A DNA stretch of 64,000 bases from Pelagomonas calceolata (lineage: Eukaryota): contig CAKKNE010000003.1 of assembly GCA_918797485.1 (NCBI GenBank), positions 5,146,001-5,210,000 on the forward strand, in the 5' to 3' direction. This document shows, in pieces, positions 4,846 through 61,470 of the stretch; within the stretch, counting starts at the first letter, position 1, and each line of letters opens with the position of its first letter. The notes under the pieces were generated by a model. It was not told where the DNA came from. It did not search any database and was given only the letters and a program-made list of their open reading frames with translations. The position numbers and the translations under genes are program-made.

Positions 4846-5323
4846 ATCAGTGAAAATCGTTAAAGAATTGGTTACTGATGGATACGCGGTGATGTTGATT
4901 TCAACGGTAAATTAGCTGAAGACCCGGCTTGAGTTCCAGGAAGGGGGAGTGAGGGCAAAAACCCCTAGCACGCGTGCTGTAACGCCATAGCCCCTATCGC
5001 CGGATCTGCGCGCGCATCATCATGATTTACTCGCCTATCAGCACGCTATATCAGCCGGCATGTGCCCGGAGCTGATATTCCCCTATATCCCGTATCTTTC
5101 TGCTTATCCAAGTGGATCAAGCCCGGCGCTAAGTAGGCGCCGTAAAAACACCGGGGTGAACCTAAAGTAAGTTCACTTCACACTAACGCAGCTAGCCTGA
5201 GTACAGCGCGGCGCTACTAGCCTCTGGTACGTACTAAAACCTGAGAAGAGCTCTAGGTGTAGGTAACTATAGGATCATAGCACAATCGTAGCACAATCGC
5301 TGTATCGCGTCCAGGGGGGAAGT

Positions 5324-5532
5324 TAGAGAGAGAAACCCTCTAGCCCTTTCCTACCCTACATATGTATCTCCCACTCTCTAAATTGAGTCTACCGCAGTAT
5401 ACATTGAGGGTCTATCGACGCTACTTTGTAAACCAGTTTATAATTCAACACTCTCGTAGTGGGTTGGCGCCAGTCCTGATAGGGCAGCCAGGACCCTGCT
5501 ACTTTACATAACGCTGCGACATACTCTTGCTA
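5324..5532 (+). mobile_element. LTR-like repeat family A (TAGAGAGAG...CTTGCTA), preceded by a polypurine tract
   Basis: Similar to copies at 15132, 42304 and 56616; ccaggggggaag lies immediately 5'. Confidence 0.7.
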
Positions 5533-15067: not shown

Positions 15068-15131
15068 ATAGACTGAGTTGATACATTCTCCAGTAGAAAG
15101 GCATCTAATGGACGCTCGCGCCCAGGGGGAG

Positions 15132-15334
15132 TAGAGAGAGAAACCTACTAGCCCTTCCTACCTTAGATATGTATCTCCCACTCTCTAATATTTGAGTCTA
15201 TACAGCGAGTGTCTTTGACGCTACGGTGTAACAACAGTTCACTATAAAACACTCTCGTAGTCAGGTTGGCCCAGCCCTCGGCTGGTGAGCTAGGACCCTG
15301 CTACTTTACATAACGCTGCGACATACTCTTGCTA
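15132..15334 (+). mobile_element. LTR-like repeat family A copy preceded by a PPT (ccagggggag)
   Basis: Near-identical to the reverse complement of 56616-56818. Confidence 0.75.
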
Positions 15335-15422
15335 GGACGCTGGTAGGATTCAAGGTGGACGTCAAGCTGGCTAAAAGTTTTTGCCTCGCATCCTCGAGGC
15401 GGCAGCTGGCGAGATATCTCTG

Positions 15423-17159: not shown

Positions 17160-18150
17160 CGCCCGTCCACGGACGCGTCGCCGCCGCTGTCGAGCGCGCT
17201 CGAACCGTCGTGCGAGGACAAAGAGGAGAAGCGGACCAAGGGGCCGTGGACGCCAGAGGAAGACGTCACGTGCGGTGTCGGTCTCCTTCTCCCTTTGTTT
17301 GTCGGGGCGGGGAGCGCACCTTGCGATGCCCGTAGCAGCTTACGCATGCCCGTCGCGCGCGCGGGCTCTAGGGGGTTTCACGGCGCTCGTGAAGACTTGT
17401 TCCGAACTTCCCACGCCCAGGCCAAGGTCGTGGAACTGGTGCGTGCTCACGGTGCCCGCAAGTGGTCCACCATCGCCTCGCAACTGCCCGGGCGCATCTC
17501 AAAGCAGTGCCGAGAGCGGTGGCACAACCACCATCTCCAAGGAGCCGTGGACGCTGGATGAGGACAAGATCATCCTATCGTCGCACGCCAAGCTCGGGAA
17601 CCGGTGGGCGGAGATCGCGAAGCTATTGCCTGGACGCACGGACAATGCGATAAAGAACCACTGGAACTCCTCAATCAAGCGCAAGTACGAGCGCTTCCTC
17701 GAGGAGGCGATGCAGGAACTCGTCGCGCCACACAACGCGGCCCGAGACGCGGCCCTGGCGGCCAAGCAGGGTCTCGAGGCGGCAGGCGTGCCGATCGGTG
17801 AGCCTCACATGGAGATGCCACTGCCAGACGACGCATACCTTGTCATCTGCCAGTCGATGCGGGCGGCGGCGCACGAGGCACGCAAGGGCGACCCACTCAA
17901 GCCGCCGCAGCCCAAAATCGTGCGCCCCTTCGCGGCCGACCTCGACGACACGCCTCGGTTCCGCCTTGTTGGCGAAAATTTGGAGAAGGCGATCTACGCC
18001 GTCTGCCAGGCACCGAAGAAGAGGAGCTACACCAAGCGGGCCGCAGGTGGCGCGCCCGCCAAGCGTAGGCCGGTGCCTCCCAAGGCAGACCCCGCCGCGC
18101 GGCCGATGCGCGTGTCGATCGTCGGGGCGTCGACGCTGACTGCGGCCGAT
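17160..18150 (+). pseudogene. Decayed inverted paralog of the adjacent MYB gene
   Basis: [12 protein letters not shown]|intron 17265-17420|[11 protein letters not shown]. An 11-nt deletion at ~17532 ([10 protein letters not shown]) shifts the frame; there is no clear start and the C-terminal region is truncated. Confidence 0.75.
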
Positions 18151-18301: not shown

Positions 18302-20589
18302 CTAGGCGTCGGCGGCGGGGCGCGCGTTCACGGGACGCTCCGCGAGGCGCGTGCGGGTCTTCTTGAACGACGGTTCCGTCGGCGCGGGCGGGCACTTCCC
18401 CTGCGGCGAGCGCGCGGCCTTGAGGACGTCGAGCGAGGCGACGGAGGAGCCGGAGGGCGGCGGCGCCGCGAAGACGTCGTCGGCGCGGACGGCGCCGTCG
18501 AAAGCGGCGTCCGGGAGCGGCTTGGTGTCCGCCGCCGTCGGGGCGCCGCGCCGCTTGAGCGCCGACGGCGTGGCGAAGGCCTCAGGCGGCAGCGCGCGCG
18601 TCGGCGTCGCGCGCCGAAGCGCGGCCGAGGACTGCGGCGGGGCGTCGGAGAGCGCGCTCTGCAACGCCGCGAGCGCGTCGTCGCCGAGGAGCGGCGACAG
18701 GCCCGGCGTCGCCACGTCGGGGCCGCCGGCGGGCGCGCGGCCGGCGACGGGCGTGTCGATGCCCGAGAGCCGCGCCGCGCGCCGCGAGGAGGCGGCGCCG
18801 CGGTCGGCAGTCGCCGCTGGGTGACCGGCGGCGTCGAAGAAGTTCCCGGGGGGCGGCGGCGGCGACCACGCGAGCCCGTCGCCGAGGTCCTCTAGGACGC
18901 CGGGGAAAGGCGGCGAGTGGACGCGGGACGCGCCGCCGCCGTGCGGGAACGGCGACGACATGGAGACGAGCGACCGCGCCGCTTCGGAACCGGTCGGCGA
19001 GACGTCGTCGCGGGCGCCGCTCGGGTCCAGGCGGACGTCGGCCAGGCCCAGGCTGAGGCCCGTGGCCTGCCGCGGCAACCGTCGCCGCGCGCGCCGACCG
19101 CGCCCCCCGGCGAGCGGGTCCGCGGCGCCCTCGTACGGGTCGACGAGCGCGTCGGCGTCGCCGAGCGACGACGCGGCGGAGCCGTAGCTCGTCCGGGGTT
19201 CCGGGCCCTCGGGCTCTAGCATCGACGCGGCAAAGATGCCGGCCGCCGCGTCCAGCTGCGTCGGCGACATCATCGACGGGTCGTCCAGGGCGTACGGCGG
19301 CGGCGAGAGCCGCGGCGACGGCGCGGCGCCACCGAGCGTCGTCGGCGCGCGGCCAGTCGCTTCGTCGCGGAACGGCGGGCCGTCGACCGTGCCCGTCGCG
19401 GCGCCGACGACGGACACGCGCGTCGGCGCGCCGACGACGGACACGCGCGTCGGCCGCGCCTGCGAGGGACGACCCTCATCCCTCACCCTAAGCCCCCGCG
19501 AACCTCGGAGCACCCCGGACGCTTCCCGCGCGGCGCGCGCGCCAGAGCTGCCTTCTGGCCCGTCGTTCGTCGCTTGGAGGACGCCCCGCCCGCGGCCCGC
19601 TTCGTGTAGCTGCGCTTCTTGGGCGCCTGGCAGACGGCGTAGACCGCGGCGTCGAGGTTGTCGCCGACGAGGCGGAACCGCGGCGTGTCGTCGAGGTCGG
19701 TCGAGAACGGCCGCACGACCTTGGCCTGCGGCGGCTTGAGCGCGTCGCCCTTCCGCGCCTCGTGCGCCGACGTCTTTAGCGACGCGCAGACGACGAGGTA
19801 CTGGTCGCTCTCGAGCGGCACCTGCGGGGCGGCGATCGACGGCGCGCACCGGCCCGCGCTCCGGACGCCGGCGGTCGCTTCGACCTGCGGCTCGCCGATC
19901 GGCACGCCCGCCGCCTCGAGCCTGCGGCGAGGAGGGGACGGCGTCGACGCGCCGTCGACGCGCGCGCCGCGGACCGTCGTTTCGGGCGCCGCGTCGGACC
20001 CGCGCTTCGCCGCCAGCGCCGCGTCCCGGGCCGCGGCGTGAAGCACGGCCAGCTCCTCCATCGCCTCCTCGAGGAACCGCTCGTACTTGCGCTTGATCGA
20101 CGAGTTCCAGTGGTTCTTTATCGCGTTGTCGGTCCGCCCCTTCAGCGACTTGGCGATCTCCGCCCATCGATTCCCCAGCCTCGCGTGCGAATGCAGAATT
20201 TCCTTGTCCTCTTTCTCCGTCCACGGGTCCTTCGAGATCGCGGGGTTCAGGTGGTTGTGCCACCGCTCCCGGCACTGCTTGGAGATGCGCCCGGGCAGTT
20301 GCTGAGCTATCGTGGACCACTTTCGGGCGCCGTGCGCGCGCACCAGTTCGATGACTTTGGCCTGGGAGCGGCGCGCGAGGGGTCGGGCGCGCGCGAGCGA
20401 TCGACGGGGGGGCCAAAAATACCGACGCTGCGAGCGGACGTCCTCTTCGGGCGTCCACGGCCCTTTCGTTCTTTTCTCGTCTGCCTCGCGCGGCCTTGCC
20501 GCCGCAGCCGTCGACGACGGCGGCGAGCCGCCGAGCCGCGGCGACGCGCGCGTCGGCGCGCGCGGGGGCGCCGGCGTCGGAATCTCCAT
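18302..20589 (-). CDS. R2R3-type MYB transcription factor; introns 20362-20439, 19922-19999, 19822-19878 and one ending ~19460
   Basis: KGPWTPEED...[27 protein letters not shown]...[26 protein letters not shown]. Intron positions are supported by alignment to the paralog. Confidence 0.92.
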
Positions 20590-21199
20590 CAGCTGTCGCG
20601 TGTGTGTGTTGTCCACGCTGGTACGCGGCGTGAAAAACGCAAAAGTATTTGAGTAGTCGTTGGTCGATGTTTAAAAACAGGTACCGTAGGTACTGTATTA
20701 GAGTACCGTAGGTACCGTACCGTAGGTACCGTAGGTAGGTACCTACGGTACCTCACTCGTACTATAAGTACGAGCTGGCCCAGACCGTGGTCCTCGGGGC
20801 CGTGGACGACATCAAGGCCCAGTTCGCCTGGCAGGAAGCCGCGGAAGCTTCCAACTCCACCGCGTCCGGAGCTGGCAGTCCGCGGCCCCGCGGCCGGCGC
20901 GAATGCAGTGTGCCAGTGCACCTGGAGTGCGAAGAATATACCCTAGTACCCTAGATACGTACCGTTTCCCTAGTCGCTTTACACACGTCAACACAGTAAC
21001 AATGAGTGAACTTATTATTACATCTAGTGCTTATTATATTAACGGGGATTCACCTATGACCTCACTGGCAGTCCGAGTCGCCAATACAGTTGCCATGACC
21101 ACCTCAGGCTTGGCTGTACACACATTGCAGCCCCATATTTTCTTCAGGTTATGGGCCCACAGCCCACGTCGGGACTGGTCAGCAACCCCGTCATCGACA

Positions 21200-21288: not shown

Positions 21289-21352
21289 ACCTACGGTACC
21301 GTACCTACCGTAGGTACCGTAGGTACGGTAGGTACGGTACCTACGGTACCTA

Positions 21353-23631
21353 CCGTCTCCGGACGTCTTTAAGTGTAACCTTATGGGTTGCGCGGCCCCG
21401 GCGGCGTTAAAATAAACTGGCAGTGTTTGGTTATCGGCAAGGGGTACCTAGGCCCTCGCGGCGCCAAAAAACGGGGCTGCCGGGTGCCGCGCCGCTGATT
21501 ATACCGGGCTCATTTACTGCTTCCATAGCGATACCCTCTGCGATAGCCTATACGCTTGCGTTAGCGACGTGAACCATCTTCGAGGCATCACATGCGTATG
21601 GGCAGGTAGCGCGGCGCATTTGAGGGTTAGCTACGTGCAGTTTATGTCTTACTCGAACGCGGGCGGCGGCGCGGCCCGAGGGGCTCTACAGACTCTCATC
21701 GCCGCTGGAAAAGTCCCAGTAACCTTTCTTGTTGGGGTCGTTGGCGATGTCGGCCAATGCCTTGGGTAGCTGGTGCGGAATGCGCTTCCAACCCATTGAT
21801 TGGAGGTACTTCTTCTTCGTAATGCGTACTTGGCTATGCTCCTGCTTGCCCTTGCTCCAGCCCTTCAGGCGGATCGTGTCCTTGGCCGCCTCATCCTTGG
21901 ACCAGAAGCAGTCGTCGAGGATCTCCGGGTCCATAGCCCAAAATTCTTCCTCGATGACTTTCCACAGCAAGTCTAATAACTTGTCCTTCGGCATCTGCTC
22001 CTTGAATTCATTGACGCGCTTGCGCACACGGCTGGCCAAGTGCGTCCACACCGCCTGGTCGAGGGCGTTGTGCGAGGGGCAGTGGCCTGCCTGCTTTCGG
22101 AATTTAATTCGGTACGTTTTGGCAGCCTTATCTAAAGTTTTGTGGTTCTCCGTCCGCGACGGAGGCCAAGTATGGTTGTCATAGCCGTGACCGGGTGCCC
22201 CATCTTCTTGTATTTCGATACAGTCCAATCCAGAGTCTTTGAAGTACTTTTGGACGGCTGCCAGGCCACCATTCGTCTGAACCATCATCTCGCAGTACTT
22301 CGCACCATCCATGGAGCAGTCGACCTGGTACTTGTCACCCGCCTTTCTGCTGTAGACTGGCTCTCTAACCATCTTTCCGACTTGTTTCGTGAATCGTTTG
22401 TCTGGTCTCAATGTATAGCCTTCTATGATGCCCTTCTCGTATACTTTCTCCTCCGTCACCCGCCAGATGCCTACCTTGCCGTCTCGCTCCCAGCTCAACC
22501 CATCCTTTGACCGTTTTGGCTGCGAGACCATCGCCATGACCATGATCTTCATGAGGTGGTTCTTGTTTTTGCATCGTTTGTACAGCTCTTTGGCTGGAGG
22601 CTCTTCTTTTTTATGGTATGTGTACTTCTCGTGGTAACCAGGGACAAAGAAGTACTTTTCGTCGACATCTGCGATCTCCTCGAAATTAGCTTGGTAGATG
22701 TATTCGGCATCAGCTAATGCAGCGTCGGCGTGCTTCTGATCCACGATCCTGGGCCGTGGAGTGACGCCATGCGTCTTGAAGTGCTTCTTTTTTATCTTTT
22801 TAACCGTCGTGAGGCCGATGTTGTTACCCTCGCCGTCTTGGACCCCGATGGCGCACACGTCGCGCGTCTTCAAAGCGCGGTTCTTTCTATAAATATCGCG
22901 CGTCTGCTTAATAATCCGGGGGTCGTCGGCCTTGCTCGTCCTCCCCACGTTACCTTAGGATAAATTTCAGTTTAGTCTCCGCTGGGGGCCCATGGGGCCT
23001 GCCGTCGCGGCGCGCGAACCCCCCGTACCGACCCGAACGAGCGGCGCTCTCTCGCGTGGCGTCGACGCAGTCGCTGGGCGACTCTCGGCGGCCGTTGAAG
23101 TGACCAAAGGACGCTGCAGATGTACCTTTTTTTCTCGAGTCTGTGGTTCCGGTAGCTTTTAGTCTCTTTTTGAGGCGCGAGATGGTGGCTTTCGTCGTCT
23201 GATAGTGCTCCAGCACGTCAGCACACGTGCCCGGTAATGCGTTCGCCTTGACCAGCTCGTACTCGCGTAATAGGTTCGCCGCGGCGCAGTTGGTGAGGTT
23301 TGATTTCCTGCCTTTACCATGTTTTAGCTGAAAATACGGGGGCTCTTCGTCCTTGAAGCGATGCTTGTAGAGGCAGATGCTTGGCACGAGGTTCTCGAAC
23401 TTAACGGGGTGCGGAATGTCGCGGCTGCCCGTCGGGCTAAAGAGGGCCTTGCGCTTGACCGAAACAGGCGGCGGCGGTCCCACAAACCGCGGAGAGAGCG
23501 GCGGCACATTGGGGATGAGGCCGCGCACGGCTGCGGCATTCAACAGCATATTTAAAGGCTCCAATTGCGTGCACCGTTGACGCTCGGTACAAAAATCTTT
23601 GAACGGTTACACTTATTCTAGGCCGGAGAGG
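21353..23631 (-). mobile_element. Full-length Tc1/mariner-superfamily DNA transposon (plant/oomycete mariner-like)
   Basis: Imperfect TIRs ccgtctccggacgtctttaagtgtaacc (21353-21380) and revcomp cctctccggcctagaataagtgtaacc (23605-23631), TA on both sides, and an internal transposase. Confidence 0.88.
21686..23564 (-). CDS. Mariner-type DDD transposase, 568 aa after removing intron 22954-23125
   Basis: Splicing gives SRKKG|NVGR. Motifs DVDEKYF, KIMVMAMVSQP, DGKVGIW, IQEDGAPGH and CPSHNALDQ parallel plant-mariner DEKWF/KVMF..VARP/DGKIG/QQDNA..H/SPDLN.LD. Confidence 0.88.
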
Positions 23632-23743
23632 TACGGTACCAGTACCGTAGGTACCTACGGTACTGTGACACAGAGCTGCCCAGGGGAAAGGAAAGGAACG
23701 CGGCAAGATGCTGGCCCGAACCGACAAAGAAGCATAAGGCTAC

Positions 23744-24978: not shown

Positions 24979-25168
24979 TTTACAGAATTCTCGGCGGCTC
25001 CCCTCTGAACATAAGCAGATCAATACACACGGTAGCATATATAGTCGGCCGTAGAAGTCCGCAAGAAGTTCGGCTGGGGGTCGGAGGGTTGACCACTTCC
25101 ACACAAGGTCACGGTTGACACTGACGCCGGACCCCGGCCTCATGCTCAGACTAGGCTGGCAATCACCC

Positions 25169-25635
25169 TAGGATGCAAATTACCTGAGGGGTTATTGACC
25201 CCTGGCGCCGCCCGCCGGGGTTGTTACTCCGGGTAATTGCCGGTTAGTACGGCCCGGGGTTATTAACCCCAGGATCTTATAGAGGGGTCAGTGCCGGGTC
25301 ACGGTGGGGAGGGGGGGCATGGGCCTGTGACTCAGCTCTAGAGCTCAGGCTGGCGCGGGCCTGGGCCGCGCTGGGCCGCTGGCGGCGACATGCCTTGGTA
25401 CTTGCCTTGGCGTACCTCAGGCTGTACGTAGCCCAAGGCTCGCCCGGCTCAGGCAGCTTGCGCCCATCCGCTCGCCGCCTAGAAGGGTCTTTCCGAGTCG
25501 ATCGCAATCTGACTAAACCGTGACAGGTTTTAGTATCCATAAATACGGCATGGGGTTGACCCGGTATTCACCCGGATCTCTCTCGGGGTGACCAGGGGGT
25601 GATTCGCGGGCAAATGACGGGTAGGCGGCAACCTA
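25169..25635 (-). mobile_element. hAT-like MITE family C, diverged copy
   Basis: The reverse complement shares gagcggatgggcgcaag...cgccaaggcaagtaccaag...cccctctataagatcctgggg with 45864-46249 and ends in ggcaaccta. Confidence 0.75.
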
Positions 25636-28135: not shown

Positions 28136-29029
28136 GGTCTTTTTGGCTGGCTTACTTACGGGAAGTACCAAGTAAATAGTTTAGTGTAACACCGCAATTG
28201 AAATTACTGGCAGTGCAAATAGTTACACAGGCAAAAGGTTACCTGCCCTCAGTCACGGTGACTGGCAGTGCCCACAGTTTCTCTGCCGAGGGCTGGTGCC
28301 AGTGCGTGAGGACAAAAATCCGACGGAGCGTCTGTTCGGGTTTTGGACTTTTAGTACACCACTGATTTCGGGTTTTGGGGGAATCCTGTGGGCTAAAGTG
28401 CCAAGTTTCTGGTCTAAAAGTAGACTAGGCGTAGGCACGTCCCGTACGTTAGAATTGTTTGATAAGAACCATAGTGGCCTGCGAACGTCACCCGCTGCCC
28501 CGTACCGTTAACGGTACGGGGCACACAGGCCCTAGTGAGTTTTGCGCCACTAGCATTTAAGCTGTTTTACGCCGGTCGTCAGAACGCTGTTCTTCGCCGC
28601 TCGCCCTTTCTTTCCGTCCCCGTAAAAACGTTTCTCTCGCTCCCCGCGTTCCGATGAGCACCTTTTCAAGATAGTTTCGCGGCGCGGAGGCGGACGAGGC
28701 CACAGGGCGGCCGCGCCGGTTGAATCCTGTCAATCCCTGTCGAACAGGTCTCCCTGGGGTCGCCTAGGGTCGGTACTATACACGTGCAAGCGCCTACGCC
28801 GCAAGCGCCGCCGCTTCAAGCATTTTTAGTCGATTTCTCTCAGCAGCCCATGAGCACCTTTTCAAAACCATCCGAGCCCACCTTGCCGCGAAACTGCCGC
28901 CGACACTGGCGCCTACGCAGCTGGCGAGTAGCGTGTCGCGTTGCGTTATAGGGTTGGCGAGGTCCTGGCTCACCAGCCAGAGGCTGGGCCAAGCCAACTA
29001 CGAGTGTTGCATAGTAGTAAATTGGTTTA

Positions 29030-30782
29030 CCGCGCTGGGCCGGCGCTCTTAGCGTCGACCTCCCGCCATCGACGCGACGACCAGCTCTCGATGGATGGAC
29101 GGTCACGAGACGAGAGGTGTCGATGGGGCAGGCGAGGCACGGGTGTCGGATCCGCATCGGCGCACCAGCGTGCCTCCTTGTTCGGGTTGTTTCCTTGGTT
29201 CGTGCACCAAGCTTCCCGCTCCTGTCTCCTCTAAAGTTCACTTTACCAGTGCTGATGATGAGGATCTTGCACCCGCCCCTTGGTCAGCACCCAGCGCAAA
29301 TTGATTTCCGGGCCGGCCCCCTTAGCGTCGACCTCCACGCCATCGACGCGACGACTAGCTCGATGGTTTCCACACGGTCACGAGACGAGGGGTAGGTGAG
29401 GCACGGGCAGGGTGTCGGATCCGCATCGGCGCACCAGAGCGTCTCCTTGTTCGGGTTGTTTCCTTGGTTCGTGCACCAAGCCTCGCTCCTGTCTCCTCTA
29501 AAGTTCACTTTACCAGTGCTGATGATGAGGATCTTGCACCCGCCCCCTTGGTCGCAGACCTGTGCAGAAATTGGATTTCCCGGGCCGGCCCCCTTAGCGT
29601 CGACCTCCACGCCATCGACGCGACGACTAGCTCGATGGTTTCCACACGGTCACGAGACGAGAGGTGTCGATTGAGACGTGGGCACGGGTGTCGGATCCGC
29701 ATCGGCGCACTTGCCGCCTCCTTGTTCGGGTTGTTTCCTTGGTTCGTGCACCAAGCTTCCCGCTCCTGTCTCCTCTAAAGTTCACTTTACCAGTGCTGAT
29801 GATGAGGATCTTGCACCCGCCCCTTGGTCGCAGACCTGTGCAGAAATTGGATTTCCCGGGCCGGCGCCCTTAGCGTCGACCTCCACGCCATCGACGCGAC
29901 GACTAGCTCGATGGTTTCCCACGGTCACGAGACGAGGGTGTCGATTGCACGAGGCACGGTGTCGGATCCGCATCGGCGCACCAGAGCGTGCCTCCTTGTT
30001 CGGGTTGTTTCCTTGGTTCGTGCACCAAGCTCGCTCCTGTCTCCTCTAAAGTTCACTTTACCAGTGCTGATGATGAGGATCTTGCACCCGCCCCCTTGGT
30101 CGCAGACACCGTGCAGAAGTTGGATTTCCCGGGCCGGCGCCCTTAGCGCCGACCTCCACGCCATCGACGCGCCACTAGCTCGATGGTTTCCACACGGTCA
30201 CGAGACGAGAGGTGTCGATTGCACGGGCACGGTGTCGGATCCGCATCGGCGCACCAGAGCGTGCCCTTGTTCGGGTTGTTTCCTTGGTTCGTGCACCAAG
30301 CTTCCGCTCCTGTCTCCTCTAAAGTTCACTTTACCAGTGCTGATGATGAGGATCTTGCACCCGCCCCCTTGGTCGCAGACCGTGCAGAAATTGATTTCCG
30401 GGCCGGCGCCCTTAAAGCCGACCTCCACGCCATCGACGCGACGACTAGCTCGATGGTTTCCACACGGTCACGAGACGAGAGGTGTTGATTGAGACGTGGG
30501 CACGGGTGTCGGATCCGCATCGGCGCACCAGAGCGTCTCCTTGTTCGGGTTGTTTCCTTGGTTCGTGCACCAAGCCTCGCTCCTGTCTCCTCTAAAGTTC
30601 ACTTTACCAGTGCTGATGATGAGGATCTTGCACCCGCCCCCTTGGTCGCAGACCTGTGCAGAAATTGGATTTCCCGGGCCGGCGCCCTTAGCGTCGACCT
30701 CCACGCCATCGACGCGACGACTAGCTCGATGGTTTCCACACGGTCACGAGACGAGAGGTGTCGATTGAGACGTGGGCACGGG
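29030..30782 (-). repeat. Tandem array of ~6.3 units of ~276 bp (intron plus 177-nt exon)
   Basis: ggtcacgagac recurs at ~29101, 29376, 29648, 29923, 30196, 30466 and 30742. Confidence 0.92.
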
Positions 30783-33700
30783 CGCCGCGACTGGAGCGGC
30801 TTCCGGCGCAGCGGTAGGCTTCAGCGTTGGCGACGGCACGGGGACCACGCTGGGCGCGGGCGTCGGCCGCGGCGTCGGCGTCGGTGTCGGTTTGGGCGTC
30901 GGCTGCGGAACCGGCCGCGGCGTTGGACCGGGCGTCGGTCGCTGCGTCGGCATCCAACAGTCGCTATTTCCGTCCTTTTGGCCAACGCCGCACGACGTCG
31001 ACTCGCACGGGGCGACGTCAAACGCGCCGTCCAGGTTCACGTCGTCGTCCACGCACCAGCCGAGGTCCTGGTCGAAGGCATAGGCCAGACAGAACATCAA
31101 ATGCATATCTCTGACGTTTTCGACGTTCCAGGCGCTGATGTCCTGGTTAAACGAGAACGCTTCGTGGAACATCATGCCCATCTCATTGACGTTGTCGACG
31201 CTCCAGCCGCCAATATTCTGATTGAACGACGAGGCGCCCAAGAACATCCCGTACATCCTCGTTACGCCGGAGGTGTCCCACGCGCCGATGTCCTGGTCGA
31301 AGGCAGAGGCGGAGTTGAACATGGAGTTCATGCTTTTGACACCGGAGGTGTCCCACGCGCCGATGTCCTGGTCGAACGACGAGGCACTGCTGAACATGGA
31401 GTCCATGTGCATGACGCTGTGGACCGCCCAACCACCGATGTCTTGATTAAAAGACGAGGCATAGTAGAACATGGAATACATCGTCGTGACGCCAGAGGTG
31501 TCCCACGCGCCGATGTCCTGGTCGAAGGCCGAGGCCCACTTGAACATGAAGGCCATCGTAGTGACGCCGGAGGTGTCCCACGCGCCGATGTCCTGGTCGA
31601 AGGCCGAGGCACTGCTGAACATGGAATACATGGATCTGACGCCCGAGGTGTCCCATGCGCTGATGTCCTGGTCGAAGGCCGAGGCACTGCTGAACATCCC
31701 GCTCATGCTCGCGACGTTGTGGACCGCCCAACCACTGATGTCCTGGTTAAACGCTGAGGCACCGCTGAACATCCAGCTCATGCTCGTTACGCTTTGGACT
31801 GCCCAATCACCGAGGTCCTGGTCGAAGGCCGAGGCATAGTAGAACATGTAGTCCATCGTAGTGACGCCGGAGGTGTCCCACGCGCCGATGTCCTGGTCGA
31901 AGGCCGAGGCACTGCTGAACATGGAATACATGGATCTGACGCCCGAGGTGTCCCATGCGCTGATGTCCTGGTCGAAGGCCGAGGCATAGTAGAACATGAA
32001 GGCCATCGTAGTGACGCCGGAGGTGTCCCACGCGCCGATGTCCTGGTCGAAGGCAGAGGCGCGGTCGAACATGGAATACATGGATCTGACGCCCGAGGTG
32101 TCCCACGCACCGATGTCTTGATTAAAAGACGAGGCGTCGCTGAACATGAAGTCCATCGTTGTGACGCCAGAGGTGTCCCACTCACTGATGTCCTCGTTGA
32201 AGGACGCAGCGGCCGAGTTGCATCCTCTAGAAGAGTAGTAAGACGAGCCGCAAAACAAATACGACATGTCCGTCAACCCTGAGGTCTCCCACGTCGAAAT
32301 ATGGCCGTACGTCGCCTCGGCGGCCGTCGCGTTTGCGAGCCACGCGGCGACTGCCGTTCTGATGTTGAAGCGGTCCATGGCGTAGCCTGTCTTGCTGGGC
32401 GCGGGCGTCGTCGGCGTCGATGTCGGTTGCGGCGTCGGGCGCTTGCTGGGCGCGGGCGTCGGCCGCGGCGTCGGCGTCGACGTCGGTTGCGGCGTCGGGC
32501 GCTTGCTGGGCGCGGGCGTCGGCCGCGGCGTCGGCGTCAACGTCGGTTGCGGCGTCGGGCTTGAAGTGGGATTCGGCGTTGGGCGCGCAGTCGGCGCGCA
32601 GGCGTCGCCCTGCAGGACGCCGCACGACGTCGACGCGCACGGGGTTATGTAGAACGCGTTGTCCAGGTCCACGCCGTCGTCCAGGCACCAACCGAGGTCC
32701 TGGTCGAAGGCCGAGGCATAGTAGAACATGTAGTACATCCTTGTGACGCCCGAGGTGTCCCACGCGCCGATGTCCTGGTTAAAGGCCGAGGCATAGTAGA
32801 ACATGAAGGCCATCGTAGTGACGCCGGAGGTGTCCCACGCGCCGATGTCCTGGTCGAAGGCCGAGGCGCGGTTGAACATGGAATACATGGATCTGACGCC
32901 CGAGGTGTCCCATGCGCTGATGTCCTGGTCGAAGGCCGAGGCGTAGCTGAACATGAACTCCATCGTCGTGACGCCCGAGGTGTCCCACGCGCCGAGGTCC
33001 TCATTGAATGATGATTTTTGTGAGAACAACGATTTCATGTCCGTCACGCCCCCAGTCTCCCACGTCGAGATGTGCCCGTAGGTCGCCTCGGCTGCCGTCG
33101 CGTTGTCGAACCACGCATTGATGGCCCATCTAATTTTCCAGTTGACCATGACGTTGCCCGAGGGCGGGAATTCACAGTCGCCCCACTTCACGCCGCAATA
33201 CGTCGACTCGCACGGGGTGTTAAAGAACATGTCCAGCATTTCCACGCCGTCGTCCACGCACCAGCCGAGGTCCTGGTCGAAGGCCGAGGCGTAGTAGAAC
33301 ATCTGGTACATCGACGTGACGCTGGAGGTGTCCCACGCGCCGATGTCCTGGTCGAAGGCCGAGGCGTAGCTGAACATGGAATACATGGATCTGACGCCAG
33401 AGGTGTCCCATGCGCCGATGTCCTGGTCGAAGGCCGAGGCGTAGCTGAACATGAATTCCATGCTCGTTACGCCCGAGGTGTCCCATGCGCTGATGTCCTC
33501 GTTAAAGGACGCCGCGGCCGAGTTGTAGTAGTCGCACCACGAGTTCGCGCAAAACAACCACGACATGTCCGTCACCCCGCCAGTCGCCCACGTCGAGATG
33601 TGGCCGTACGCCGCCTCGGCGGCCGTCGCGTCCGTGAGCCACGCGGTGACGGCGGTTCGAATGCTACTGTCACCCATCGAGCCACCGCACCGTAGTAAAG

Positions 33701-35306
33701 CCCTGTTGCCGACGCCGCACGACGTCGACTCGCAGAGGACGCCGCCGTTGAACGCGCCGAGGAGGTCCACATCGTCGTCCACACACCAGCCGAGGTCCTG
33801 GTCGAAGGCCGAGGCGCTTTGGAACATGTAGGCCATGGATCTGACGCCCGAGGTGTCCCACGCGCCGATGTCCTGGTTGAAGGCCGAGGCAGAGTAGAAC
33901 ATGGAGCTCATCGACGTCACGCCGGAGGTGTCCCACGCGCCGATGTCCTGGTCGAAGGCCGAGGCGCGGTCGAACATGGAGGTCATGGATCTGACGCCCG
34001 AGGTGTCCCACGCGCCGATGTCCTGGTCGAAGGCCGAGGCGCGGTCGAACATGGAGCTCATCGACGTCACGCCGGAGGTGTCCCACGCGCCGATGTCCTG
34101 GTCGAAGGCCGAGGCGCTTTGGAACATGTAGGCCATGGATCTGACGCCCGAGGTGTCCCACGCACCGATGTCTTGATTAAAAGACGAGGCGTCGCTGAAC
34201 ATGGAATACATCGTCGTGACGCCAGAGGTGTCCCACTCACTGATGTCCTCGTTGAAGGACGCAGCGGCCGAGTTGCATCCTCTAGAAGAGTAGTAAGACG
34301 AGCCGCAAAACAAATACGACATGTCCGTCAACCCTGAGGTCTCCCACGTCGAAATATGGCCGTACGTCGCCTCGGCGGCCGTCGCGTCCGCGAGCCACGC
34401 TGCGACTGCCGTTCTGATGTTGAAGCGGTCCATGGCGTAGCCTGTCGGGCGCGGCGTCGGGCCAGGCGTCGGCTGTCGTGTCGGCGCACAACCGCCCTCC
34501 ACTTTCGTGACGCCGCACGACAATGACGAAAAAGACTCGCACGGGGTGTTAAAGAACATGTCCAGCATTTCCACGCCGTCGTCCACGCACCAGCCGAGGT
34601 CCTGGTCGAAGGACGAGGCAGCGGTGAACATCCTTAACATCGTCGTAACGTTAGAGGTGTCCCATGCGCCGATGTCCTGGTCGAAGGCCGACGCGTAAAA
34701 GAACATGTTCTCCATGCTCGTTACGCCCGAGGTGTCCCACGCGCCAATGTCCTCGTTAAAGGACTCCGCGGCCGAGTTGTAGTAGTCGCACCACGAGTGC
34801 GCGCAAAATAACTCCTTCATGTCCGTCACCCCGCCAGTCGCCCACGTCGAGATGTGGCCGTACGTCGCCTCTGCTGCCGCCGCGTCGTCGAACCAGGCGG
34901 TAACGGCCATTTTTATGTTGCTGTCGGTCATGACGTAGCCGAGCTTGCGCCGCGTCATGGACGCATTCGCCGGTCCGAAGGGCCGAGCGGCCGCGAGGTG
35001 CGGCGAAAAGGCCAGCAGCGCGCGGAGGACCCGCACGCGCGCCGCGGAGCTGCCGTGCGTCGGCAGCGCCGAGCAGGACAAAAAGGCGCCGAATGCGACA
35101 GCACCAGCAGCGCCCCCCGCCGACGGCCGCCAGCCGCCGTCCGTTCTGTAGTTGCGCGTCGTCGGCTTGATTTTTTCTTTGCTTTGCGCTGCCGCAGGCG
35201 TCGTGGTCGCGCCAGTGGTCGTTCGCAGCAGCCGGGAGGGGGCAGCCACGATTACGAGGGCGAGTAGGGAGGCAGCCCAGGACTTGTGGTAGCGCCGCGG
35301 CGGCAT
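30477..35306 (-). CDS. Large DUF285/BspA-like 25-aa-repeat surface protein with PT linkers; probably spliced into the tandem Cys exons
   Basis: Many [25 protein letters not shown] repeats in five capped modules, with PTPxPT linkers. The ORF stop at 30744 falls inside a predicted intron 30654-30752. Confidence 0.88.
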
Positions 35307-35795: not shown

Positions 35796-36277
35796 CGGGT
35801 CCGAAACGGTCCTAGTGTCGGCGGCAGTTTCGCGGCAAGGTGGGCTCGGATGGTTTTGAAAAGGTGCTCATCGGAACGCGGGGAGCGAGAGAAACGCTTT
35901 TACAGGGACGGAAAGGACGAGCGGCGAAGAACAGCGTTCTGACAAGCGGCGAAAAACAGCTTAAATGCTAGTGGCGCAAAACTCACTAGGGCCTGTGTGA
36001 CCCGTACCGTTAACGGTACGGGTCACCGCAGTTCATTTATTTCACTCAGGCCCGGGCTAGTAAATAGAAGATCCCATGATTTATTTATAATCTCCGAGTC
36101 GGTGTCACTGGCATGTGATAATCACTGGCATGATTACTTGGCCGGGGCCTGTTTAACCTCACCCCGAACCCATGTACACTGAGTGGTACGAGCCTCATAG
36201 CAACAGGACCGCCTTGCTAGTGTCTTACATGCGCTAGCGCGCGTCGAGGGCCAACATTCGCCCGTGAGACTGCCAAA

Positions 36278-42079: not shown

Positions 42080-42303
42080 GGCCAAAACGCGTAGCTGTAG
42101 GGATTTTAACTGCGTAGCGTCCACAGCGTATTAGCTATAGAGCTACCCCCTGGCCTTGCTAGTGCCTTACACGCCGCTAGCCTAAAGGAGAGATGTTCTG
42201 TCTTTTCCTTTATTTCTAACCAAGACTTCGGAAGATCCGAACCAGACTTCGCTGCCCACGCTGATACGGTACCGTGGTACCTACGGTACCGTACCGTAGG
42301 TAC

Positions 42304-42800
42304 TAGAGAGAGAGAAACCTACTACTAGTACTACTAGTAGCCCTTCCTACCCTAGATTTGTATCTCCCACTCTCTAAATTTGGAGTCTATACAGCGAGTG
42401 TCTTTGACGCTACGGTGTAACAACAATTTACTATAAAACACTCTCGTAGTTAGGTTGGCCCAGCCTGAGCCCTCGGCTGCAATGGAAATACACGTCTAGT
42501 AGGATCCCAAGGTTCAACTGAGACGTATCCAAGCACAACCCGTACTTGTATTACCCGCCTAGGCTACTTCCCATCCTAGGGTACTCCGATATCCCCTTAG
42601 TAGGGGGAAGTCGCCTCTCACTCCTAACTATTATCATCCTGAGTCACCTTAAATTGACGGACGTAATTCCCCGTCACAAACCCCATCAAACATGGGAGAA
42701 ACTATTTCGTTAGACGACTACACTACGCTGCCGGGGAAGTCCGGAGCTACACACTCTATTTCCCTATGCATCGCATCGGCTGGTGAGCTAGGAACCCTGA
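42304..42800 (+). mobile_element. LTR-like family A copy interrupted by a solo LTR
   Basis: Family A sequence breaks at ccctcggc and resumes as tggtgagctagga after 42780. Confidence 0.8.
42478..42775. mobile_element. Solo LTR (298 bp)
   Basis: TGCAATG...CATCGCA termini with a 5-bp TSD TCGGC (42473-42477 and 42776-42780); the empty site is visible in the 15132 copy. Confidence 0.88.
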
Positions 42801-45715: not shown

Positions 45716-45863
45716 ACTCAGTGTATTTTAAGGTAGCTCCTCGGCAGACTATCTCAACCGCCGTACTCCCAAAGGTGCGTACTCCTCAGGCTTTGGTCTT
45801 GCATTATTCGCAGCACTGCCGTGCTCCTAGGCGACGTAGGCGTACCACGTCCTACTCAGGCTC

Positions 45864-46249
45864 TAGGTTGCCATTAACCGGTTAATAACCGGTTATTTAC
45901 CTATTATTACCCCTCGAAGGGGATCCGGGGTGAATAACCCGCTCAATAACCCGACGGGTTTTCGACTAAACCCGTCTAGTGAGATTAGAGAAAGACACCT
46001 CCGGACGAGCGGATGGGCGCAAGCAGCCCGTTGGGCTTTTTGGATACGTACAGGTGCGCCAAGGCAAGTACCAAGTCATGTGGCCCGGCGCGGCCCAGGC
46101 CCGCGCCAGTGGCCCGTGAGGCCCCCTCCCCTACCCCTCTATAAGATCCTCAGGCTGAGGTAAATCTCCCGTACTGACCGGTAATTACCCGGGTTATTAA
46201 CCCCGGGCGGCGCCAGGGGTAAATAACCCCTCAGGTAAATGGCAACCTA
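45864..46249 (+). mobile_element. hAT-like MITE family C (TIR TAGGTTGCCA...TGGCAACCTA)
   Basis: 10-bp TIR and subterminal aataaccc repeats; highly similar to 60876-61255. A possible 8-bp TSD gtcctact (45849 and 46251) is offset by a few bases on the left. Confidence 0.85.
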
Positions 46250-46494
46250 GGTCCTACTGGTAGTATTCTTTTTTACATGACCATGGCCAAATAACCTGTG
46301 CACTAAACTAATAGTAATAATTACAAGTGTTGTACGCGCGGCGCATGGCAAATCAAAATCAAACGCCGAGGCGCATATAACGTCGGGCGAGTTCGTAGCG
46401 AGGCTGCCGTGGCGTCGCCGAGCCCGAAGATGTACACAGGACGGTGGGCGCGCAGGTCATGGCAACGAGGCGCGCCCGGCGAGGTCGAGCGACG

Positions 46495-48192: not shown

Positions 48193-49220
48193 TCGTCCTT
48201 GTGGCTGCGAGAGTGTCACGGCTGCCCCATGGTAAATTAGGTCATTATGGCACGGTACCTACTGCGGTACGGTACCGTATTCACTAGGCCTACTCTATCC
48301 GGGTATTTAACCAAGATAAGTGAGACTAGGATAGTGAAGCTAAGATAAAAATTTGGGAGATTTATAAGTGGAAAAGAGGCCGTTGCCACAACGGGCACCA
48401 ACCCCATCAACGCCACGATCAGCCTTACATAGGTTCGGGACAGCCCTTGGGTCTCTTATTAAAGCTCCTTCTGCAAACAGAGGGCTGTTGACCCCTCTCA
48501 TCACGGGCGCCGCGGGATTGCAACGATCCACCAATTGGATTCAAAGGTCGAACAAGAAGTTCCGGGGAAAACCCCACCTTTAGGGGAATTACCATAAGCC
48601 CCTTTGGCAGTGCCTGAGCTAAATTGGTAGGACAATTTAACTCGTCAACAAATCATACAGATTCGCAACAGGTCGAACAGGACGTACATGCTAGGGAACT
48701 AATCCCAGCTTAGGAATATAAATTCCAGCTCCATAACTGCCAAAGGCTGCTGGGGTTAATACCCGGAGCATCATAGACGTAAATACAAGGATACGTGGCC
48801 ATATCATAGCAGGTACCTACGGTACCGTAGGTATGGTACTAGAGAGAGAAACCTACTAGCCCTTCCTACCCTAGATATTTCAGCGATATTAGCTTCGGTA
48901 TGTGCTTGTGTCTAATGAGCTTGGTGCAGCAAGTGCACAATGCAGCTGTTGTAGCTAGGTCTTCAGCGATATTATGCATCCGAGTCCCGCGCCGCGGCGG
49001 TCGCCGAGGGGCAGTATTCAATCTGTTTTTCTTATGATAAGGCCACTCCCCTACGCCCCAAGGGCCACTCCGGCCACATGTGAAATTCTTGCTAACGGAA
49101 GTAGACATCTGGCGCTAGGCTGGCTAGTCTAGGCGGTTACTTACCTACGGTACCGTACAAATCGGAGGGCCTGAAAAAAATTATTAAAAAAAAAAGTACC
49201 AGCACGAACAACAACGAGAG

Positions 49221-53541: not shown

Positions 53542-53899
53542 TGACCCTGCTCCAGAACTGGCCATCGCAATAATTGCACTCCCAGCCCTGGATTTTTACC
53601 GTGAGGCCGCCCTCCTTTTCGACCACTTTGTGCGCTGCCGTCGTATGTTTGTCCCACGCGGCGTCCGCCTTCGGCATATTGAACGCAGGGGCAGCTCTTT
53701 ACTGGCCGCCGCTCCCTGTCCCATTGATTGTCATGATTGATTTTGAGTCTAGTGTCTATCATCTAGGGCATCGGGGGAGAGGGCGGCTTTTGGCGGCGTT
53801 TAAAGTACCGGGTTATTGACCGGGTTATTTACCCCAGATCCCCTCCGAGGAGTAATAATAGGTAAATTACCGGTTATTAACCGGTTAATGCCAACCTAG
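53542..53899 (-). mobile_element. 5' end of a hAT-like parent of MITE family C with a BED-finger-like ORF start
   Basis: Terminal ~90 bp match the family C 5' end; ORF MPKADAAWDKHT...WECNYCDGQF. Confidence 0.65.
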
Positions 53900-56439: not shown

Positions 56440-56615
56440 CTTCAAGCAGCAGGATCGTAACGATCTCCACTAACGGCCCGGCCCGCCCGGGCGGGCTTCG
56501 ATGATGGGGAACTAGAAGCCGGGGATAACCTCATACCTTCAGGGGATTGCCAAAGACACGTCCAAAGACCCGTTTAGACGCACGAGCTTGTCACGGTATA
56601 AATACAAGGGGATAC

Positions 56616-56818
56616 TAGCAAGAGTATGTCGCAGCGTTATGTAAAGTAGCAGGGTGTTAGCTAACCAGCCGAGGGCTGGCTAGACCTGACTACGAGAGTG
56701 TTTTATAGTGAACTGTTGTTACACCGTAGTGCTTTTGACACTCGATGTATAGACTCAAATATTAGAGAGTGAGGGATACATATCTAGGGTAGGAAGGGCT
56801 AGTAGGTTTCTCTCTCTA
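56616..56818 (-). mobile_element. Solo LTR-like family A copy, 203 bp, with 5-bp TSD GATAC
   Basis: gatac|tagcaagag...ctctctcta|gatac. Confidence 0.85.
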
Positions 56819-60616: not shown

Positions 60617-60875
60617 GCTCCGCGGCGGACCCCCCGAGCCGGCGCGCCGCCCTCAAGCTACGCCCCCCCCCCCGGTGCCCGCTCGCGGGGCCCTCGCCCC
60701 GTGTTAACGAATGATGCGAGCCTGAGACATACTCGAGTTCCCTTAGAGAGTTCCCTGTGAAGCTGGGTGTGTACGCTAGCTGGCTCGCAGCTTTCCTGGA
60801 ACCTTGAGCCTTGCGGCTAGTTCTAGAACTTGATACCGAACCGTGACTTGATTTGCCAGTGTACTGAGTCCGTGC

Positions 60876-61255
60876 TAGGTTGCCACTTACCTGTTAATTA
60901 CCCGTTATTAACCTATAATTACCCCTCGGAGGGGGTCCGGGGTTAATAACCCGCTCAATAACCCGACAGGTTTCGACTAAACCCGTGTGAGATTAGCGAA
61001 AGACCCTCCGGGCGAGCGGATGGGCGCAAGCAGCCTGTTGAGCTTTTGGATACGTACAGGTGCGCCAAGGCAAGTACCAAGTCATGTGGCCCGGCGCGGC
61101 CCAGGCCCGCGCCAGTGGCCCGTGAGGCCCCCTCCCCCGGGCCTACCCCTCTATAAGATCCTGGGGTTAATAACCCGTACTAACGGGTAATTACCCGGGT
61201 TACTGACCCCGGGCCGCGATTGGGGTTAATAACCCCTGGGGTAAGTGGCAACCTA
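60876..61255 (+). mobile_element. hAT-like MITE family C copy
   Basis: taggttgcca...tggcaaccta; internal sequence nearly identical to 45864-46249. Confidence 0.85.
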
Positions 61256-61470
61256 GGTAGTACGGTACTAGTACTAGTAGTACTAGAAACTTGAAGTTAT
61301 TATGAAGTTATTATTTATTTATTTATTGGCGGAACAGGGGCTCTGCGGACACTGGCAAATTCTAACTCGGTGTTTGGTGAATGTAGCCCCTTGTCGGCAC
61401 TGCTGCATTGCGGGCTTCAATTGGCATTGCGAGGGACGCACATAAACACCACGGCGCGGGACGATCGTGA

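What the first reader, a model, noticed from the sequence alone, without database searches (positions are those of the whole stretch)
28496..28523. Perfect 28-bp terminal palindromes with a compensatory base-pair change
Seen: the left end is tgCcccgtaccgttaacggtacgggGca (28496-28523) and the right end is tgAcccgtaccgttaacggtacgggTca (35998-36025). They differ at two positions that pair with each other (C-G versus A-T), so both remain perfect palindromes. Inference: symmetry is either selected or regenerated by hairpin/fold-back copying of each end, hinting at an unusual end-processing mechanism.
Basis: partly seen in the sequence, partly recalled or inferred. Interest (0 to 1): 0.78.

Follow-up and report, generated by a model that had tools for sequence, protein, structure and literature searches.

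The report
Hairpin-ended mobile element of marine alga
The two perfect 28-base palindromes are the outer tips of a widespread mobile DNA family in a marine pelagophyte alga, and their paired letters change together across about a hundred insertion sites, which suggests each tip is likely rebuilt from a folded-back hairpin when the element moves, as proposed for some integrated protist viruses.

Summary
Observation confirmed. The palindromes (28496-28523, 35998-36025) cap ~170-bp terminal inverted repeats of a 7,530-bp element with TG..CA ends and a 4-bp target duplication. Its one recognisable gene is a DUF285/PARCEL repeat protein. Marine metagenomes gave 118 distinct ends. Of 93 intact ends, 78 were C3/G26, 15 A3/T26 and none mixed; a wider scan found 1 mixed in 101. 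Positions 3 and 26 stay coupled while position 26 is unlinked from inner repeat sites. Private mutations are uncompensated at background rate, so symmetry is not kept in the chromosome. 13 of 16 clean truncations start at the palindrome axis. Best reading (0.6): each end is remade from a hairpin during mobilisation, then inserted by a retroviral-type integrase supplied in trans. A 2026 preprint proposes this for palindrome-ended endogenous virophages and Polinton-like viruses. One metagenome locus has a broken integrase of that type and a Zn-ribbon/GIY-YIG-like gene inward of an end, but the link is unproven and no capsid was found. Only one compensated pair exists, so selection plus a single template switch remains possible. 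New variant of a known kind.

The parts
28492..28495 (.). left copy of the 4-bp target-site duplication (CCGC)
   Evidence: 4-bp duplications also flank two other two-ended copies (L027 212-bp copy CAAC; L109 114-bp copy CTCG)
28496..28523 (.). left terminal 28-bp perfect palindrome, C3/G26 type, TG..CA, TTAA at the axis
   Evidence: majority type, 78 of 93 intact ends
28496..28669 (+). left terminal inverted repeat (about 170 bp, 93.6% identical to the right one)
28847..28907 (+). second subterminal block matching 35814-35874, separated from the first block by about 180 bp of other sequence
29037..30782 (.). tandem array of 6.4 copies of a 273-bp unit; the DUF285 ORF ends inside the last unit
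30744..35306 (-). cargo ORF of 1520 aa with DUF285/PARCEL repeats; host-like codon use (GC3 0.84); no transposase, integrase or capsid domain
   Evidence: PF03382, 12 stretches; TIGR02167
35707..35815 (+). degenerate telomere-like TTAGGG tract in the right subterminal region, shared with other family copies (L020, L079, L105, L002)
35856..36025 (-). right terminal inverted repeat
35998..36025 (.). right terminal 28-bp perfect palindrome, A3/T26 type
   Evidence: minority type, 15 of 93 intact ends
36026..36029 (.). right copy of the 4-bp target-site duplication (CCGC)

Best explanation
The palindromes are the tips of a non-autonomous mobile element with long inverted repeats and a 4-bp target duplication, and they are likely rebuilt from a hairpin each time the element moves, before a retroviral-type integrase, presumably supplied by a virophage- or Polinton-like parent, would insert it. 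Shown: the element limits, TG..CA ends, the 4-bp duplication, two palindrome types that are nearly never mixed, no upkeep of symmetry after insertion, and breaks concentrated at the axis. Inferred steps: (1) out of the chromosome, each end folds back or is closed as a hairpin whose tip is the central TTAA, and the hairpin primes copying; (2) the 14-nt arms are then the two strands of one duplex, so one fixed mutation appears at both positions 3 and 26; (3) a nick 14 nt from the tip, unfolding and fill-in give back a 28-bp palindrome ending in CA-3', in the manner of parvovirus terminal resolution (recalled); (4) the integrase joins the CA ends with a 4-nt stagger. Each end is treated on its own, which is why the window element has one end of each type. 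The nicking enzyme is unknown; a Zn-ribbon/GIY-YIG-like protein found inward of one end is only a candidate.
For: Coupling: 78 C/G, 15 A/T, 0 mixed of 93 intact ends, collected with a search word lying outside the palindrome. Position 26 is unlinked from inner sites (26-74 r2 0.01, 26-109 r2 0.00) while 3-26 r2 is 0.93, its single mixed row being a truncated end, L113. The T26 type sits on 4 different inner haplotypes in 4 readable cases, and 2 of these plus a third close one also occur with G26. So plain linkage by descent is a weak explanation. Private changes are uncompensated at background rate, so symmetry is set at insertion. 13 of 16 clean truncations begin at positions 11-15 (binomial p about 1e-7, post hoc window). 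4 of those 13 are joined to element-related sequence, against 4 of 93 intact ends (Fisher p 0.0075). 4-bp duplications flank 3 of 4 copies with two intact ends, within the 3-5 bp reported for endogenous virophages (PMC8547959, passage). Virus-like genes lie inward of ends. L066 holds an internally deleted integrase whose N-terminal part is 100% identical to a full-length 613/667-aa protein with an intact D-D-E triad; its predicted fold best matches foamy-virus, MELD-virus and mavirus integrases. L066 also holds a Zn-ribbon protein with a GIY-YIG/T5orf172-like C-terminal part. L050 holds an FkbM-like methyltransferase (below cut-off). The integrase-bearing low-GC segment of L066 shares about 95 bp at 97-99% with sequence lying between two element ends in L079. 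Precedent: palindromes inside TIRs next to the duplication in Halocafeteria virophages and PLVs, with a hairpin-priming model (10.64898/2026.07.28.741278, section 7).
Against: Only one compensated pair was found, so it may be a single event. Recurrent changes at positions 6, 12 and 20 are never compensated. One mixed A3/G26 end exists (L024:8111, 10 nt from a contig end). Some inner pairs keep linkage (74-122 r2 0.49, 123-186 r2 0.71). Short-read metagenome assembly can mis-phase sites across a repeat, which would fake the loss of linkage between 26 and the inner sites. Crossovers may also be rare so near the end of homology. Short palindromes are fragile in chromosomes (PMC12686595, PMC5737083, abstract starts only), which could explain axis breaks with no free hairpin form. 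The L066 integrase is broken, lies about 6 kb from the end in a scrambled locus, was found in no other held locus, and is essentially uncovered by contigs of four runs of the organism that best matches the window. No capsid, packaging ATPase or replicase was found in 69 inward ORFs (Pfam only; 69 picked from 335). L032 has two intact ends and no 4-bp duplication. No hairpin-ended molecule was observed.
Confidence: 0.6

Rival explanations
1. The element is an ordinary cut-and-paste integrase transposon (Ginger2/TDD-like, recalled) whose enzyme binds the palindrome as a symmetric double-stranded site. The A/T type arose once, by a mutation plus a quasi-palindrome template switch (recalled mechanism), and mixed ends are filtered out because they cannot transpose. 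Axis breaks come from cruciform cutting in the chromosome.
For: TG..CA ends and 4-bp duplication. Only one compensated pair, and the rest of the palindrome is invariant apart from decay. Short inverted repeats are known mutation hotspots (abstract starts). L024 and L038 show arm-to-arm slips within the palindrome, so template switching there does happen.
Against: Dead mixed ends made by conversion between chromosomal copies should be visible, yet 0 of 93 (1 of 101) were seen while position 26 is unlinked from inner sites. Axis-truncated ends are enriched for joins to element-related DNA. Inward genes look virus-like.
Confidence: 0.28
2. The 28-bp palindrome is the target of a protelomerase or tyrosine recombinase that cuts around the axis, releasing the element as a hairpin-capped line or a circle and leaving a solo palindrome behind.
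For: Perfect symmetry and size fit telomere-resolvase sites (recalled). Breaks cluster at the axis. One palindrome lacks the inner repeat (L002:3794).
Against: Exact 4-bp duplications outside the palindrome point to a DDE integrase. No solo palindrome flanked by a duplication was found in the 121 loci plus the window, although those loci were selected by the inner repeat. No such enzyme was found among 69 inward ORFs.
Confidence: 0.07
3. The true ends are at the central TTAA (piggyBac- or Kolobok-like), or the palindromes are assembly fold-backs.
For: TTAA lies at the axis, and some ends start there.
Against: The outer arm is the same at 93 independent sites and the duplication lies outside it. 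Independent runs carry the left junction unchanged.
Confidence: 0.03

Closest known systems
Endogenous virophages (subtypes 1, 2, 5, 6) and PLV subtype 4 of Halocafeteria seosinensis with terminal palindromic repeats (bioRxiv 10.64898/2026.07.28.741278; I read the abstract, sections 7 and 10 and keyword passages; figures and supplements not seen)
   Same: Palindrome inside the terminal inverted repeat directly next to the target duplication; stramenopile host; association with retroviral-type integrases; proposed hairpin priming; the paper also mentions fragmented copies that keep repeats and duplications.
   Different: 28 bp here against 52 nt in subtype 5. The copies here are capsid-less (114 bp to 7.5 kb) and carry DUF285/PARCEL cargo. 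The host is a pelagophyte alga. The main text has no hit for 'compensat' or 'covar', so the coupling test and the axis-break pattern appear to be new evidence.
EMALE endogenous mavirus-like elements of Cafeteria (PMC8547959, keyword passages) and PLVs/Polintons generally (PMC12220804, keyword passages)
   Same: Long inverted repeats; integrase-made duplication of 3-5 bp in EMALEs; Zn-ribbon/GIY-YIG fusion genes are typical of this network (PMC3671162, keyword passages).
   Different: No terminal palindrome is mentioned in the two endogenous-virus papers (0 hits). PLV duplications are typically 5-6 bp. No morphogenesis genes were found here. The domain order in L066 (Zn ribbon first) is the reverse of that in mavirus MV06.
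Parvovirus rolling-hairpin terminal resolution (recalled)
   Same: Logic of hairpin priming, nick opposite the hairpin, unfolding and copying.
   Different: No HUH Rep protein was found. The arms are only 14 nt with no flip/flop asymmetry, and insertion leaves an integrase-type duplication.
Ginger2/TDD-type integrase DNA transposons and Pack-type non-autonomous elements (recalled)
   Same: TG..CA ends, 4-bp duplication, gene cargo between inverted repeats.
   Different: Terminal perfect palindromes are not a feature I recall for them. One search returned only a Kolobok paper.

Membership tests
Palindrome-ended endogenous virophage/PLV | terminal inverted repeats of hundreds of bp | tested here: met
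   about 170 bp at 93.6%, plus a further 60-bp block
Palindrome-ended endogenous virophage/PLV | palindrome inside the repeat, adjacent to the target duplication | tested here: met
Palindrome-ended endogenous virophage/PLV | short integrase-type target duplication | tested here: met
   4 bp in 3 of 4 copies with two intact ends; EMALEs 3-5 bp; PLVs usually 5-6 bp
Palindrome-ended endogenous virophage/PLV | RVE integrase encoded by the element | tested here: inconclusive
   absent from the window element; a broken copy about 6 kb inward of an end in L066, with intact natural homologues; essentially uncovered by contigs of four best-matching runs
Palindrome-ended endogenous virophage/PLV | major/minor capsid, packaging ATPase, protease | tested here: not met
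   none in the window element or in 69 inward ORFs; Pfam may miss PLV capsids, so the parent remains open
Palindrome-ended endogenous virophage/PLV | replication gene (pPolB or primase-helicase) | tested here: not met
   none found
Palindrome-ended endogenous virophage/PLV | free hairpin-ended replicating form | not testable with these tools
   the runs laid were contigs only
Ginger2/TDD-like integrase transposon | TG..CA ends with 4-bp duplication (recalled feature) | tested here: met
Ginger2/TDD-like integrase transposon | single integrase ORF between the repeats, in the Ginger clade | tested here: inconclusive
   no complete autonomous copy found; no tree built; best folds are MELD, foamy and mavirus integrases
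piggyBac/Kolobok | TTAA duplication at the element ends | tested here: not met
   TTAA is internal; flanks are unbiased
Helitron/Helentron | no target duplication, one subterminal hairpin, Rep-helicase (recalled) | tested here: not met
   4-bp duplications and hairpins at both ends; no Rep-helicase hit
Protelomerase/tyrosine-recombinase site | solo palindrome footprints and a cognate enzyme | tested here: inconclusive
   no solo site with a duplication in held loci, but these were chosen by the inner repeat

The most novel reading that the evidence does not exclude
A capsid-less, hairpin-replicating class of cargo elements descended from virophages or Polinton-like viruses. They copy themselves outside the chromosome by parvovirus-like terminal resolution, insert with a retroviral-type integrase, and shuttle DUF285/PARCEL surface-repeat genes between giant viruses and one of the ocean's abundant algae. 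The 3/26 coupling would be the first sequence-level sign that the two arms are the two strands of one duplex.
Probability: 0.35. Interest if true: 0.82.

Novelty: new variant of a known kind. Interest (0 to 1): 0.62.

Why it matters
How virophages and Polinton-like viruses that lack a protein-primed polymerase replicate their ends is open; hairpin priming was proposed in 2026 from anatomy alone. This family supplies about a hundred natural ends, a two-allele marker inside the hairpin, and mini-copies of 114-212 bp, so the model can be tested directly: a single mismatch should come back corrected. DUF285 lies within 2.5 kb inward of 7 of 39 readable ends and outward of 0 of 55. DUF285 genes are reported to be in flux between a pelagophyte and its giant virus (10.1101/2024.10.30.620910, passages), so the family may be a vehicle for that flux.

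Tried and rejected
No whole genome is held, so copy number, empty sites and the autonomous copy could not be sought genome-wide. Viral contigs: 0 hits for the 22-nt core. The one hit of the inner 16-mer lies in a tailed-phage gene with no further match. The integrase and the GIY-like domain found no relatives in viral contigs. Records behind the metagenome loci could not be searched further. The fold of the Zn-ribbon/GIY-like protein was unusable (pLDDT 42.8); that label rests on language-model neighbours scoring 0.92-0.94, with the family on only 14-23% of members. L066:3402-4607 had no usable hit. PHROGs gave nothing useful. Rfam gave 0 matches over the element. Earlier scan notes: nothing. 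Contig depth was not used as copy number. Lack of cover of the L066 integrase in four runs is not proof of absence. Eight complex ends (L024, L036, L038, L049, L055, L064, L071, L099) and one contig-end row (L061) were set aside from the truncation count; three axis ends (L091, L104, L120) were assigned by eye because of extra changes. Paper searches showed no description of this family in their listings; subscription papers, Repbase and bioRxiv supplements were not visible, and the Halocafeteria supplements may hold similar end comparisons.

Full report
Observation. None of 100 block shuffles of the window gave a perfect palindrome above 24 nt. Each folds as a 12-bp stem with a TTAA loop. Contigs of 3 of 4 public runs carry the left junction unchanged, and loose ends of mixed sequence begin at 28495/28496, so this is the boundary of a repeated element.

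The element. The palindromes are the outer 28 bp of inverted repeats of about 170 bp at 93.6% identity. They enclose 7,530 bp, begin TG and end CA, and are flanked by CCGC on both sides. Inside are a 273-bp tandem array, a 1520-aa DUF285/PARCEL ORF and a degenerate TTAGGG tract near the right end. No transposase, integrase, polymerase or capsid was found in it, so it is non-autonomous. The flanking kinase's best named homologues are from Aureococcus (58%) and other Pelagophyceae. The window is 64.0% GC and the end occurs in many marine metagenomes. A Pelagomonas-like host is my inference; the P. calceolata genome paper gives 63% GC and TTAGGG telomeres (10.1101/2021.10.25.465678, passages).

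Other copies. I scanned metagenome contigs with a 20-mer just inside the palindrome, so that the palindrome was free to vary. With the window these gave 129 ends, 118 distinct by flank: 93 intact, 24 altered, 1 cut by a contig end. The 93 intact ends are 78 C3/G26 and 15 A3/T26, none mixed. A scan for any 28-mer within 4 mismatches gave 101 ends: 82 C/G, 17 A/T, 1 A/G (L024, next to a contig end) and 1 disrupted by an insertion. The copies share descent, so the Fisher value of 1e-17 is not a real probability; this is one compensated pair. Three of four copies with two intact ends have an exact 4-bp duplication (window, L027, L109); L032 has none.

Is the coupling more than linkage? Position 26 is unlinked from inner sites 48-96 bp away (r2 0.00-0.12), whereas 3-26 has r2 0.93, its one mixed row being the truncated end L113. 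The T26 type lies on four different inner haplotypes in four readable cases. Against this, some inner pairs keep linkage (74-122 r2 0.49; 123-186 r2 0.71), short-read assembly can mis-phase across repeats, and exchanges may be rare so near the end of homology. Private changes in the palindrome are all uncompensated, 15 in 2604 bases, against 8 in 1512 in the next 18 inner bases. Symmetry is therefore not maintained in the chromosome; it is set or filtered when the element moves.

Breaks at the axis. Of 16 ends whose outer part is cleanly replaced, 13 start at positions 11-15 (p about 1e-7 against a uniform spread; window chosen after seeing the data; 8 complex ends set aside). Four of the 13 are joined to element-related DNA, against 4 of 93 intact ends (p 0.0075). 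This fits molecules that end at the hairpin tip. It also fits cutting of chromosomal cruciforms, since short inverted repeats are reported as mutation hotspots (abstract starts only).

The likely parent. DUF285 lies within 2.5 kb inward of 7 of 39 readable ends and outward of 0 of 55; several of these genes are low in GC. Locus L066 has, inward of an axis-truncated end, a Zn-ribbon protein with a GIY-YIG/T5orf172-like tail (weak, and the fold failed) and then a low-GC segment with an internally deleted integrase. Its N-terminal part is identical to a full-length protein in a 98-member cluster. The family keeps D161, D243 and E283, and its predicted fold (pLDDT 77.7) best matches foamy-virus, MELD-virus and mavirus integrases. 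That segment shares about 95 bp at 97-99% with DNA between two ends in L079. Zn-ribbon/GIY-YIG fusions are typical of virophages and Polintons (PMC3671162, passages). The link is not proven: the locus is scrambled, the gene occurs in no other held locus, contigs of four best-matching runs barely touch it, and no capsid or replicase was seen in the 69 of 335 inward ORFs that I scanned.

Mechanism. Most likely (0.6) the mobilised element has hairpin ends with the tip at TTAA. The arms are then two strands of one duplex, so a fixed mutation shows at both paired positions. A nick 14 nt from the tip, unfolding and fill-in would restore a 28-bp palindrome ending in CA, which an integrase would join with a 4-nt stagger. 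These steps are inferred; the ends, duplication, coupling, decay and breaks are shown. The main rival (0.28) is a symmetric binding site of a cut-and-paste integrase, with one template-switch event and selection against mixed ends. A protelomerase or recombinase site (0.07) and TTAA-ended or artefactual readings (0.03) fit worse.

Comparison and novelty. A July 2026 preprint reports palindromes inside the terminal repeats, next to the duplication, in several endogenous virophage and PLV subtypes of Halocafeteria, tied to non-pPolB replication genes and certain integrases, and proposes hairpin priming without experimental test (10.64898/2026.07.28.741278, sections 7 and 10). The present element works like those ends but fails membership on capsid and replicase, so I file it as a capsid-less, cargo-carrying variant and not as a virophage. 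What appears new is the population test of coupling (no hit for 'compensat' or 'covar' in that text; 0 papers held all five terms), the axis-break pattern, and the tie to DUF285 genes, which are reported to move between a pelagophyte and its giant virus. Supplements and subscription papers were not seen. Interest 0.62.

Noticed in passing
window 20679-20752, 21289-21356, 23640-23665, 42265-42324, 48812-48858: Intergenic clusters of GTACCGT/ACGGTAC units, including a perfect 26-bp palindrome at 23640-23665, share their 7-mer with the core of the terminal palindrome.
   Followed up: no
window 45863-46262, 60875-61267, 53809-53899, 25167-25417: A second, unrelated small element family of about 400 bp with CTAGG ends and internal short palindromes.
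   Followed up: partly
window 5305-5532, 15116-15335, 42334-42465, 48840-48878, 56615-56818: A third dispersed non-coding repeat of about 200 bp, often next to the GTACCGT clusters.
   Followed up: no
window 29037-30782: The 273-bp tandem array inside the element overlaps the 3' end of the DUF285 ORF, as if that gene end had been amplified.
   Followed up: partly
L024:7964-8000 and L038 end: Two independent ends show the same arm-to-arm slip at the GTAC repeated in both arms, duplicating part of the palindrome.
   Followed up: partly
L105, L112, L099, L024, L027, L079: Ends occur in tandem in the same direction, some inserted inside another copy's inverted repeat.
   Followed up: partly
L066:5572-6867 (-): The Zn-ribbon/GIY-like gene heads very large, variable protein clusters (532, 109, 96, 85 and 71 members), and contigs of three best-matching runs cover it.
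   Followed up: partly
L005:997-1044 and L079 upstream of 1458: Two different ORFs share a near-identical 110-bp upstream region, a possible reused promoter of the parent element.
   Followed up: no
L050:275-1993 (+): Low-GC FkbM-like methyltransferase ORF 2-3.7 kb inward of an end, beside DUF285 sequence.
   Followed up: partly
window 17416-18065 and 19571-20366: Inverted duplication of a Myb-domain coding region at about 80% identity.
   Followed up: no
window 62127-62553: 48-bp tandem array (9.3 copies) inside a long ORF without Pfam match.
   Followed up: no
L129, L138, L140, L151, L160: Prokaryote genomes hold 40-50-nt perfect palindromes around the same 16-nt core, unrelated to this inverted repeat.
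   Followed up: no
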